Part shown: piece by piece, positions 29,936-30,203 of the stretch
How positions within the stretch are numbered: the first letter of the stretch is position 1
Layout: each line of letters opens with the position of its first letter
Made by a program: the position numbers and the translations under genes
Notes under the pieces: model-generated
Database searches by the model: none
Seen by the model: the letters and a program-made list of their open reading frames with translations, nothing else
What the model was told of the DNA's origin: nothing
Source of the DNA: Escherichia coli
Lineage (GTDB): Bacteria; Pseudomonadota; Gammaproteobacteria; Enterobacterales; Enterobacteriaceae
DNA: 46,580 nt
Assembly: GCF_003334255.1 (NCBI RefSeq)
Contig: NZ_QOWU01000043.1
Strand: one strand, 5' to 3'

Positions 29936-29969
29936 TTCAAAATTCGACGGATTAACGATATTTGTCTGA

Positions 29970-30203
29970 TTAATAATCAGATCGGATTAATGTTGGTGTG
30001 TTTATAACACCAACATTAATTTTCCTGGGGATATATTCTTCCTGTTCATTTGAGGCCAACTGCCTGACGTTTCTCTCCGAATATTCCATTATCTTAATGT
30101 TGACTTGTTGACCAGCTTCGCCCCTGTATGCTGGCATCAACCCTCTTTTAGACTGAACACGCCACTCAGTCTCCTCCCTTTGCGGCGCAGCCTGCATTTT
30201 CAC
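29970..30203 (-). CDS. ykgL: possible small protein YkgL (questionable)
   Basis: 77-aa ORF at the position and strand where I recall ykgL in K-12; its 3' end overlaps the terminator hairpin and no clear SD was seen. Confidence 0.3.
   Translation of the reverse strand: MKMQAAPQREETEWRVQSKRGLMPAYRGEAGQQVNIKIMEYSERNVRQLASNEQEEYIPRKINVGVINTPTLIRSDY
29985..30022 (+). terminator. hairpin ATTAATGTTGGTGT-gtttata-ACACCAACATTAAT followed by TTTT; probable rpmE2-rpmJ2 terminator
   Basis: Direct read; 14-bp stem plus T-run, 50 nt downstream of rpmJ2 stop. Confidence 0.5.

What the first reader, a model, noticed from the sequence alone, without database searches (positions are those of the whole stretch)
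29964..30203. Putative ykgL ORF conflicts with the rpmJ2 terminator hairpin
The 77-codon minus-strand ORF 29970..30203, where I recall K-12 annotates ykgL, has its 3' end running through a 17-bp palindrome (TCTGATTAATAATCAGA, 29964..29980) and a 14-bp-stem hairpin with T-run (29985..30022) that looks like the plus-strand terminator of rpmE2-rpmJ2. Either ykgL is a spurious call over terminator sequence, or the locus encodes overlapping functions.
Basis: partly seen in the sequence, partly recalled or inferred. Interest (0 to 1): 0.3.

Follow-up and report, generated by a model that had tools for sequence, protein, structure and literature searches.

The report
Conserved hairpin under doubtful ykgL ORF
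The stem-loop just after the zinc-regulated ribosomal-protein genes ykgM-ykgO is a real, conserved RNA structure, while the overlapping "ykgL" reading frame is an E. coli-only ORF broken in over 40% of strains, so this is an ordinary case of a doubtful gene call lying over a 3'-end hairpin.

Summary
The 77-codon minus-strand ORF (29970-30203; RefSeq ykgL is 75 aa from ATG 30197) runs through an 8+1+8 palindrome (29965-29981, reader off by one) and a perfect 14-bp hairpin (29986-29999/30007-30020), followed by only TTTT.

The hairpin is not a chance feature (z -5.7). It is kept in E. albertii and another divergent Escherichia lineage through compensatory changes, while the rest of the ykgL frame decays there to about 44% identity with many indels.

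ykgL has no relatives outside Escherichia and no family, structure match or confident fold. It carries 1-2-nt deletions in about 44% of complete E. coli genomes, and its substitutions look neutral.

Published Term-seq places a 3' end on the ykgL strand 2 nt after the hairpin, inside codon 72 and before the ykgL stop.

As a ykgMO terminator the hairpin is non-canonical: AU-rich stem, short T-run, sub-threshold score. No plus-strand 3' end has been mapped, because ykgMO is Zur-repressed in the conditions tested.

Verdict: an ordinary 3'-end hairpin of ykgMO, used on both strands, under a spurious or very young ORF. Low interest.

The parts
29529..29795 (+). ykgM (rpmE2), type B ribosomal protein L31. 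RefSeq starts at 29532 (87 aa) or 29529 (88 aa).
   Evidence: dN 0-0.007 across E. coli lineages.
29792..29935 (+). ykgO (rpmJ2), type B ribosomal protein L36. RefSeq ATG at 29795, stop codon 29933-29935.
   Evidence: The identical 46-aa protein is indexed in 102,323 blocks of the collection.
29936..29985 (+). 50-nt spacer between the ykgO stop and the hairpin (3' UTR of ykgMO).
29965..29981 (.). 8+1+8 palindrome TCTGATTAATAATCAGA. It contains the ykgL stop codon (29970-29972). It is specific to E. coli: a 6-nt insertion splits it in E. albertii and in strain SCPM-O-B-8794.
   Evidence: Weak as RNA (dG -6.5, z -2.6). Such palindromes are common in the window.
29986..30020 (+). Conserved stem-loop: arms 29986-29999 and 30007-30020, loop 30000-30006. 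Proposed 3'-end hairpin of the ykgMO mRNA. Its reverse complement supplies roughly ykgL codons 60-71.
   Evidence: Conservation and compensatory changes.
30020..30023 (+). Short T-run (TTTT, then CC). It loses one T in L015/L016, is one T longer in L019, and is absent in both outgroups.
29970..30197 (-). Annotated ykgL ORF (75 aa; the GTG at 30203 would give 77 aa). Judged non-conserved and probably non-functional.
29984..29984 (-). Published Term-seq RNA 3' end on the ykgL-sense strand (MG1655 312325 +). It lies 2 nt after the stem, at the first base of ykgL codon 72, before the stop codon.
   Evidence: Supplements 1 and 3 of PMC7815308. Coordinate mapping checked.
29843..29843 (-). Published Rho-termination region on the ykgL-sense strand, antisense to ykgO/ykgM (MG1655 312466 +; Rho score 2.37, significance 4e-5).
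   Evidence: Supplement 2 of PMC7815308.

Best explanation
The selected element is the RNA stem-loop at 29986-30020, 50 nt after the ykgO stop codon. It most likely serves as the 3'-end hairpin of the Zur-regulated ykgM-ykgO mRNA.

Inferred mechanism on the plus strand: with its short U-run the hairpin gives at best partial intrinsic termination, and it blocks 3'->5' exonucleases so that the mRNA ends in a protected stem.

Shown on the opposite strand: because a hairpin is self-complementary, it also forms in the weak transcripts that come from the AT-rich ecpR-ykgL spacer. Those RNAs end 2 nt after the stem. Molecules that read through are stopped by Rho about 140 nt further on, inside antisense ykgO/ykgM.

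The ykgL reading frame is a by-product. It is a chance-length ORF in fast-evolving non-coding DNA, and its last 17 or so codons are simply the reverse complement of the hairpin and palindrome. It is not a conserved protein-coding gene. At most it is a very young ORF confined to some E. coli lineages.
For: 1. The hairpin is real and non-random: 14 perfect pairs, dG -19.8 kcal/mol, z -5.7.

2. The hairpin outlives its surroundings. Against K-12, E. albertii and SCPM-O-B-8794 keep it while the rest of the ykgL ORF region aligns at only 44.8% and 43.4% identity with many indels.

3. Pairing is maintained. 95.8% of cells are paired across 8 haplotypes. Two pairs changed on both sides: U-A to C-G, with the U-G intermediate present in B2/O157-type E. 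coli, and G-C to A-U. G30000A and A30006T always occur together and add a loop-closing A-U pair.

4. Other genera carry a terminator hairpin directly after ykgO. GC-rich stems with T-runs occur in Salmonella, Citrobacter, Franconibacter, Siccibacter, Serratia and Brenneria.

5. ykgL is not conserved. All 113 homologues that carry a name are Escherichia, and none has a native Pfam domain (the sole Pfam hit is the L31 part of the chimeric P0102). NCBIfam gives nothing and PDB nothing significant. AlphaFold gives pLDDT 47.8 and pTM 0.12.

6. ykgL is often broken. The 275-bp region is 90-95% identical in 2089 of 5062 records, whereas ykgMO was at least 97.8% in every full-length row sampled, with no record below 95%. 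All 26 sampled rows at 95.3% identity or below (from the 90-95% band and the low end of the 95-99% band) have a net deletion of 1 or 2 nt. Of the 11 divergent records fetched, 10 are annotated 'frameshifted' and 1 carries a 63-aa variant with a different C-terminus. Gene callers find a ykgL-like ORF in only 4 of 10 contexts that hold the identical YkgO, and none of 60 aa or more in 7 E. albertii genomes.

7. Substitutions look neutral. Variable sites by codon position are 9:11:17, against 5:2:16 in ykgMO. The ORF differs by 9.8% between K-12 and L013, the flank by 8.2%. A neutral simulation gives P(13 or fewer aa changes) = 0.16-0.23 and P(ORF stays open) = 0.16.

8. The ykgL-strand RNA ends inside the ORF. 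The Term-seq 3' end at MG1655 312325(+) is window 29984(-), inside ykgL codon 72. Its Rho score is 0.91 (not Rho-dependent) and its intrinsic-terminator score is 2.35, below the 3.0 cut-off. A Rho region follows at 312466(+) (PMC7815308).

9. The two transcription units overlap. ykgL-ykgO is listed as a convergent excludon from stranded RNA-seq (PMC12288877). ykgL rises together with ykgM and ykgO as the top three induced genes under calprotectin, with more than 1000-fold induction of the ykgMO operon confirmed by RT-qPCR (PMC12279244).
Against: No plus-strand (ykgMO) 3' end at the hairpin has been mapped. The available Term-seq was done where Zur represses ykgMO.

The hairpin is a poor canonical terminator. 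It has 4 G-C pairs of 14 and 3-4 T. My d'Aubenton-Carafa-type score is -8 to -20, and the scan tool does not call it. The T-run is absent in E. albertii and SCPM-O-B-8794.

Strand asymmetry of the pairing is weak: 5 U-G cells fit only the plus strand, and 2 A-C cells would be G-U on the minus strand. The beneficiary strand is therefore inferred, not shown.

The covariation rests on three deep lineages only.

dN/dS of the intact ykgL alleles is 0.32-0.39. The ykgL frame has the most synonymous changes of the six frames, 7 against 2-6. Weak constraint is therefore not excluded.

I found no ribosome-profiling or proteomic data for or against YkgL. The Mori 2021 supplements contain none of ykgL, ykgM or ykgO.
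Confidence: 0.6

Rival explanations
1. ykgL-sense RNA is a functional non-coding antisense partner of ykgMO, that is, a true convergent excludon. Transcription from the ecpR-ykgL spacer runs through the hairpin into antisense ykgO/ykgM and modulates the Zur-regulated operon. The hairpin acts as a leaky bidirectional gate that sets the amount of overlap.
For: ykgL-ykgO is listed as a convergent excludon in at least 50% of stranded RNA-seq samples. A Term-seq 3' end sits at the hairpin on the ykgL strand, and a Rho region follows inside antisense ykgO/ykgM. A cis-antisense sRNA candidate, ECS017, lies opposite the ykgM promoter, with a northern band of about 275 nt (PMC3175480).
Against: ykgL-strand coverage is low: Term-seq counts of 749-865 and 35 DirectRNA-seq reads in the upstream 800-nt window. 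The scan finds no consensus sigma-70 promoter on the minus strand upstream of ykgL. The source region is a published H-NS-associated 'promoter island', typical of spurious transcription (PMC3661553). The sequence upstream of the hairpin is not conserved in other Escherichia. No regulatory effect has been shown.
Confidence: 0.15
2. ykgL is a real but young, lineage-restricted small protein of K-12-like E. coli and a few other lineages. Its C-terminus was recruited from the reverse complement of the hairpin, so the locus truly encodes overlapping functions.
For: The 75-aa frame is intact in about 54-59% of complete genomes and in the divergent L013/L014/L021 lineage despite 22 substitutions. dN/dS is 0.32-0.39. 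There is a slight excess of third-position and synonymous changes. The strand is transcribed.
Against: The constraint signal is not significant against a neutral model. The frame is broken by deletions not divisible by three in about 44% of genomes. Alleles with frameshifts, different C-termini and internal duplications coexist. The K-12 C-terminus appears to derive from a 1-nt insertion relative to the SCPM-O-B-8794 and O157-type state. The mapped 3' end lacks the stop codon. The ribosome-binding site is weak (GAG only). There is no confident fold.
Confidence: 0.12
3. The inverted repeats act as DNA, as binding sites for a dimeric regulator or a recombination or mobile-element end, rather than as RNA.
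For: The 17-bp palindrome is nearly invariant within E. coli. The region borders an AT-rich, probably horizontally acquired segment (38% GC against 49.7% for the window).
Against: The palindrome is split by a 6-nt insertion in other Escherichia. The hairpin changes preserve pairing rather than sequence, including U-G intermediates. The sequence is single-copy in E. coli genomes (median 1 place per genome). The plasmid copies lie on records labelled E. coli K-12 or laboratory culture, where the match is annotated ykgL, so they probably carry a chromosomal segment. There is no similar site elsewhere in the window and no Rfam or repeat-family match.
Confidence: 0.04

Closest known systems
Rho-independent (intrinsic) terminators of enterobacterial operons, including the GC-rich terminators found directly after ykgO in Salmonella, Citrobacter, Franconibacter, Siccibacter, Serratia and Brenneria
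   Same: A stable stem-loop a few tens of nucleotides after the last gene of the operon, followed by T residues on the sense strand. It occupies the same position as the terminators after ykgO in other genera.
   Different: The stem is long and AU-rich (4 G-C pairs of 14). The T-run is only 3-4 nt, and the score is sub-threshold. The T-run is missing in E. albertii and SCPM-O-B-8794. No sense-strand 3' end has been mapped.
Bidirectional terminators and overlapping 3' ends of convergent genes (SEnd-seq work of Ju et al. 2019, cited from memory) and convergent excludons (ExcludonFinder, PMC12288877)
   Same: One hairpin lies between two convergent transcription units. A 3' end is mapped at its base on the ykgL strand. 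The pair ykgL-ykgO is in the published excludon list.
   Different: There is no symmetric A-tract/U-tract. On the minus strand the stem is followed by CCGAUC. One partner, ykgL, is probably not a gene. No mutual regulation has been shown.
Stem-loops that stop 3'->5' exonucleases after Rho-dependent termination (model of Dar and Sorek 2018, cited from memory)
   Same: On the ykgL strand the 3' end lies 2 nt after a stable stem, without a U-tract. It is scored neither as Rho-dependent at that position nor as an intrinsic terminator. A Rho termination region lies about 140 nt downstream.
   Different: Trimming has not been tested here. The coverage is low.
Orphan or spurious y-gene ORFs in the E. 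coli K-12 annotation (or 'proto-genes')
   Same: It is restricted to the genus. It has no domain, fold or family. It is frameshifted in many strains, its length is variable, and its substitutions are near-neutral.
   Different: RefSeq still names it 'protein YkgL'. Its strand is transcribed, and translation has not been tested.

Membership tests
Intrinsic (Rho-independent) terminator of ykgMO | Stable stem-loop shortly after the last gene | tested here: met
   14-16 pairs, dG -19.8 kcal/mol, z -5.7, starting 50 nt after the ykgO stop.
Intrinsic (Rho-independent) terminator of ykgMO | G+C-rich stem | tested here: not met
   Only 4 G-C pairs of 14.
Intrinsic (Rho-independent) terminator of ykgMO | U-tract of about 7-8 nt (at least 5 U) directly after the stem | tested here: not met
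   The sequence is TTTTCC with the first T paired. The scan tool does not call it. The score is -8 to -20. The T-run is absent in the outgroups.
Intrinsic (Rho-independent) terminator of ykgMO | RNA 3' end 7-9 nt after the stem on the sense strand | not testable with these tools
   The published Term-seq was done under Zur repression and reports no plus-strand 3' end here.
Conserved structured RNA element | Base pairs kept through compensatory changes across species | tested here: met
   95.8% of cells are paired and 2 pairs changed on both sides (22 of 500 shuffles reach this). Slid registers give 26-58% paired. Only three deep lineages are available.
Bidirectional terminator / convergent excludon | Transcripts of both convergent units overlap or end at the same hairpin | tested here: inconclusive
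   The minus-strand 3' end at the hairpin and the excludon listing come from the literature. The plus-strand end is unmapped.
Bidirectional terminator / convergent excludon | A-tract upstream and U-tract downstream, so that both strands have a U-tail | tested here: not met
   On the plus strand GATCGG precedes the stem. On the minus strand the tail is CCGAUCUGAUUA.
Conserved protein-coding gene (YkgL) | Orthologues with an intact frame across related species and strains | tested here: not met
   Homologues occur only in Escherichia. There is no ORF orthologue in E. albertii or SCPM-O-B-8794. About 44% of E. coli genomes carry 1-2-nt deletions.
Conserved protein-coding gene (YkgL) | Purifying selection (dN/dS well below 1, third-position excess) | tested here: inconclusive
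   dN/dS is 0.32-0.39, but this is not significant against a neutral simulation (P = 0.16-0.23). Codon positions are 9:11:17.
Conserved protein-coding gene (YkgL) | Membership of a protein family or a recognisable fold | tested here: not met
   No native Pfam domain (the sole hit is the L31 part of the chimeric P0102) and no NCBIfam match. No significant PDB match. pLDDT is 47.8.
Conserved protein-coding gene (YkgL) | Evidence of translation or of the protein | not testable with these tools
   No paper text mentions YkgL protein detection. The supplements searched were uninformative.

The most novel reading that the evidence does not exclude
The conserved hairpin is a two-way gate in a zinc-responsive excludon. 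ykgL is not a protein gene but an antisense transcription unit. How often it passes the hairpin, before Rho stops it inside antisense ykgO/ykgM, would tune ykgMO expression, and strong Zur-derepressed ykgMO transcription would in turn silence it. Alternatively, K-12-type E. coli has recently gained a small protein whose C-terminus is read from the reverse complement of a terminator.
Probability: 0.12. Interest if true: 0.4.

Novelty: new member of a known kind. Interest (0 to 1): 0.15.

Why it matters
The main value is for annotation. ykgL (b0295) is still carried as 'protein YkgL' in RefSeq. It is counted as a gene in expression studies, for example as one of the top three calprotectin-induced 'genes'. 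The evidence here says that signal is better read as the 3' UTR or read-through of ykgMO, and that ykgL should be treated as doubtful.

The work also shows that the ykgMO operon, which is used as a zinc and calprotectin biosensor, ends in a weak, non-canonical hairpin. That is relevant to anyone who reuses the locus as a genetic part.

It opens no long-standing question.

Tried and rejected
- Rfam scan of 29000-31000 at E <= 1: no match.
- Genome-contig scan with a YkgL alignment: 243 pattern matches, none confirmed.
YkgM was used instead.
- Search for 'b0295': only reference anchors, useless.
- Searches for a mapped ykgMO 3' end, or for ykgL translation, in supplements. TERMITe had no occurrence. 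The Rend-seq annotation paper, ExcludonFinder and Conway 2014 have no supplements held. The acid-stress Ribo-seq supplements hold only ykgO. RiboReport holds none. The Mori 2021 proteome holds none of ykgL, ykgM or ykgO. All of these are uninformative rather than negative.
- The calprotectin paper does not say whether its RNA-seq was stranded, so 'ykgL induction' cannot be assigned to a strand.
- Literature search for ykgM 3' UTR or read-through: nothing.
- More E. albertii genomes gave the same hairpin sequence, so no extra covariation. The SCPM-O-B-8794 lineage likewise.
- Repeat or mobile-element reading rejected: the sequence is single-copy per genome, and the plasmid hits lie on E. coli K-12 or laboratory-culture records where the match is annotated ykgL, so they probably carry a chromosomal segment.
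- A similar palindrome elsewhere in the window: none.
- Resemblance of the palindrome to an ARG box, and of the stem to Zur-box half-sites, was considered by eye and dropped because the spacing does not fit.

Full report
WHAT IS THERE

The window carries the E. coli ykgM-ykgO (rpmE2-rpmJ2) operon on the plus strand (29529/29532-29795 and 29792/29795-29935). A minus-strand ORF runs from 30203 to 29970 (77 aa, GTG start). RefSeq annotates the same frame as 'protein YkgL', 75 aa, from the ATG at 30197. ecpR follows at 30972.

The hairpin has perfect 14-nt arms at 29986-29999 and 30007-30020 with a 7-nt loop, and is followed by TTTTCC.

As RNA the hairpin folds at -19.8 kcal/mol, with z = -5.7 and 0 of 200 shuffles as good. 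The palindrome is weak (z = -2.6), and the window holds seven comparable perfect palindromes.

The ORF length carries no information. A frame of at least 75 aa appears in 28% of shuffles of the 1036-bp, 38%-GC spacer.

The ykgL stop codon lies inside the palindrome. Roughly codons 60-71 are the reverse complement of the hairpin.

IS ykgL A GENE?

Distribution. A search of 5.8 billion proteins found 113 relatives. Every named one is from Escherichia. None has a native Pfam domain: the only Pfam hit, L31 (PF01197) in P0102, comes from an L31 N-terminus fused to a YkgL C-terminus. Lengths range from 42 to 103 aa. The alleles include locally frameshifted stretches, two different C-termini (...RKINVGVINTPTLIRSDY and ...PGKLMLV) and internal duplications. 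NCBIfam gave nothing and PDB nothing significant. AlphaFold gave pLDDT 47.8 and pTM 0.12 on a shallow alignment.

Variation within E. coli. Among complete genomes, the 275-bp ykgL region is at least 99% identical to the window in 2726 records and only 90-95% identical in 2089 of 5062. ykgMO was at least 97.8% identical in every full-length row sampled, and no record fell below 95%. In an evenly spaced sample of the ranking, all 26 rows at 95.3% identity or below (from the 90-95% band and the low end of the 95-99% band) show a net loss of 1 or 2 nt, never 3. I fetched 11 such records. Ten are annotated 'frameshifted' by PGAP, and one (O157-like) carries a 63-aa 'hypothetical protein' that stops inside the hairpin loop.

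Where the frame breaks. An alignment of 22 haplotypes places 1-nt deletions at about 30036, at 30121, at 30165 and in the T-run.

Gene calling. Among ten distinct contexts that encode the identical YkgO, gene callers found a ykgL-like ORF in only four.

Substitution pattern. Variable sites fall 9:11:17 on codon positions 1:2:3. This is not significant, and contrasts with 5:2:16 in ykgMO. K-12 and the divergent but intact allele L013 differ at 22 nt and 13 aa, giving dN/dS 0.39 and dN 0.08. In ykgMO dN is 0-0.007. A simulation used the substitution spectrum of the flanking non-coding DNA. It gives 13 or fewer aa changes with P = 0.16-0.23, and the ORF stays open with P = 0.16. The ORF diverges by 9.8% and the flank by 8.2%.

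Outgroups. A scan with YkgM brought in E. albertii and a divergent lineage filed as E. coli SCPM-O-B-8794. There ykgO is 86-91% identical to K-12. The ykgL ORF region outside the hairpin aligns at only about 44%, with large indels, and no orthologous ORF exists. Seven E. albertii genomes have no ORF call of 60 aa or more there.

Origin of the K-12 C-terminus. SCPM-O-B-8794 shares the 'G plus 1-nt gap' state at 30033-30036 with B2/O157-type E. coli, and its open frame also ends ...LMLV in the hairpin loop. This suggests that the K-12 C-terminus, which runs through the hairpin and palindrome, arose by a 1-nt insertion. The alignment there is poor, so the point is suggestive only.

Conclusion on ykgL. 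It is not a conserved protein-coding gene. Translation in K-12 remains untested.

IS THE HAIRPIN FUNCTIONAL, AND FOR WHOM?

Conservation. The hairpin is the one recognisable block downstream of ykgO in all Escherichia lineages sampled. On an 8-haplotype alignment 95.8% of cells are paired, against 26-58% in slid registers. Two pairs changed on both sides. One went from U-A to C-G in E. albertii, and the U-G intermediate (A30013G) is the common B2/D/E E. coli allele. The other went from G-C to A-U. G30000A and A30006T always travel together and add a loop-closing A-U pair. This argues for selection on an RNA (or single-strand) structure rather than on the YkgL peptide or on a protein-binding DNA sequence.

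Which strand benefits. The strand signal is weak. Five U-G cells fit only the plus strand, and two A-C cells would be G-U on the minus strand. Context favours ykgMO as the beneficiary. ykgMO is the conserved unit. In Salmonella, Citrobacter, Franconibacter, Siccibacter, Serratia and Brenneria, ykgO is followed directly by a canonical GC-rich terminator with a T-run.

Terminator quality. The Escherichia hairpin is not a canonical terminator. It has 4 G-C pairs of 14 and only 3-4 T, and the scan tool does not call it. I implemented a d'Aubenton-Carafa-type score, with the formula taken from memory. It gives -8 to -20 for the plus strand and -68 for the minus strand, and is positive only for the L019 allele with TTTTT. 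Neither outgroup has a T-run.

Experimental data. These come from the literature.
- Term-seq of MG1655 in LB and in a second condition reports a 3' end at 312325(+) (Adams et al. 2021, PMC7815308). This is the ykgL-sense strand.
- I mapped that end to window 29984(-). I checked the mapping, and the '50 nt + 3' end + 10 nt' layout of their sequence column, against the ykgR 3' end at 313047(-), which is window 29262.
- The end lies 2 nt after the stem and 213 nt from the ykgL ATG. That places it in codon 72, before the stop codon, so this RNA species cannot encode full-length YkgL.
- Its Rho score is 0.91 ('No') and its intrinsic-terminator score is 2.35, below the 3.0 cut-off.
- A significant Rho termination region follows at 312466(+), which is window 29843, antisense to ykgO/ykgM.
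- No ykgMO-strand 3' end is listed. This is expected because Zur represses the operon in those media.
- Stranded RNA-seq lists ykgL-ykgO as a convergent excludon (PMC12288877).
- In E. coli Nissle treated with calprotectin, ykgM, ykgO and 'ykgL' are the three most induced genes, and more than 1000-fold induction of the ykgMO operon was confirmed by RT-qPCR (PMC12279244). The simplest reading is that ykgMO transcripts cover the ykgL region. The strandedness of that library is not stated.
- The ecpR-ykgL spacer is a published H-NS-associated 'promoter island' (PMC3661553). This fits weak, spurious ykgL-sense transcription.

MOST LIKELY MECHANISM

Shown:
- The hairpin exists and is conserved by compensatory change.
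- The ykgL frame is not conserved.
- A ykgL-strand RNA ends at the base of the hairpin, and Rho acts downstream.

Inferred:
- On the ykgMO mRNA the hairpin with its short U-run gives partial termination and/or protects the 3' end against exonucleases.
- On the opposite strand the same stem protects RNAs that were terminated by Rho and then trimmed back.
- ykgL is a by-product ORF.

RIVALS

- A regulatory antisense or excludon role for ykgL-sense RNA (0.15).
- A young, lineage-restricted YkgL protein (0.12).
- A DNA-level binding site (0.04).

None of these is excluded, and none has direct support.

NOVELTY AND INTEREST

This is an ordinary instance of known kinds: a 3'-end stem-loop between convergent units, and an orphan ORF of doubtful status. 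Parts of it are already in public tables, namely the PGAP 'frameshifted' flags, the Term-seq end and the excludon list.

Its practical value is as an annotation caution for ykgL. It also shows that the ykgMO operon, which is used as a zinc and calprotectin sensor, ends in a weak terminator.

Interest is 0.15.

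Noticed in passing
window 29212-29262 (+): Downstream of ykgR lies a stem CCTCTCCC ... GGGAGAGG with a long loop. A strong published Term-seq 3' end follows it at MG1655 313047(-), which is window 29262(+). It has 48,378 reads and is classed 'orphan'. It lies just upstream of the ykgM promoter region.
   Followed up: partly
window 29503-29520: A perfect palindrome GTTATGTTATAACATAAC sits directly upstream of ykgM. From my own knowledge this is the Zur box of the ykgMO promoter.
   Followed up: no
window 29843 (-) and the ykgM promoter region: A published Rho-termination region lies antisense to ykgO/ykgM (MG1655 312466 +). A published cis-antisense sRNA candidate, ECS017 (92 nt; northern band about 275 nt), lies opposite the ykgM promoter (PMC3175480). 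The ykgMO operon is therefore covered by antisense transcription.
   Followed up: partly
window 30943-30961: A perfect 8+3+8 palindrome ACCTGTAAAAATTACAGGT ends 11 nt before the GTG at 30972, which opens the long ecpR frame. RefSeq starts ecpR later (180 aa, not 196 aa).
   Followed up: no
window 29936-30971: The ykgO-ecpR spacer is 38% G+C against 49.7% for the window. It diverges by 7-9% between E. coli lineages. It is listed as an H-NS-associated 'promoter island' (PMC3661553).
   Followed up: partly
window 30181-30196 (+) and 30384-30365 (-): The scan calls two weak terminator-like sites. One is on the plus strand, at the 5' end of the ykgL ORF (TGCGGCGCAGCCTGCA followed by TTTTCAC), and could catch ykgMO read-through. 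The other is on the minus strand, upstream of ykgL.
   Followed up: no
proteins P0001, P0002, P0102: Odd ykgL alleles exist in public data. Two have internal tandem duplications (103 aa and 84 aa). One 68-aa call fuses the N-terminus of L31 type B to the C-terminus of YkgL, which implies a deletion or an assembly artefact spanning ykgM to ykgL.
   Followed up: no
H1, NZ_CP104618.1: In strain AHM9C68I an IS1A element is inserted within the 1.1-kb ykgM-ykgL stretch. The match is split into two pieces that span 1878 bp.
   Followed up: no
window 29529/29532 and 29792/29795: Start codons are ambiguous. ykgM is called as 87 or 88 aa in different records. The ykgO frame opens at GTG 29792, but ATG 29795 is the annotated start. 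The ykgM stop and the ykgO start overlap.
   Followed up: no
window 4667-4685: A perfect palindrome TGTTGAATAATATTCAACA (8+3+8, nested 8+1+8) lies far from the finding. Its function was not examined.
   Followed up: no
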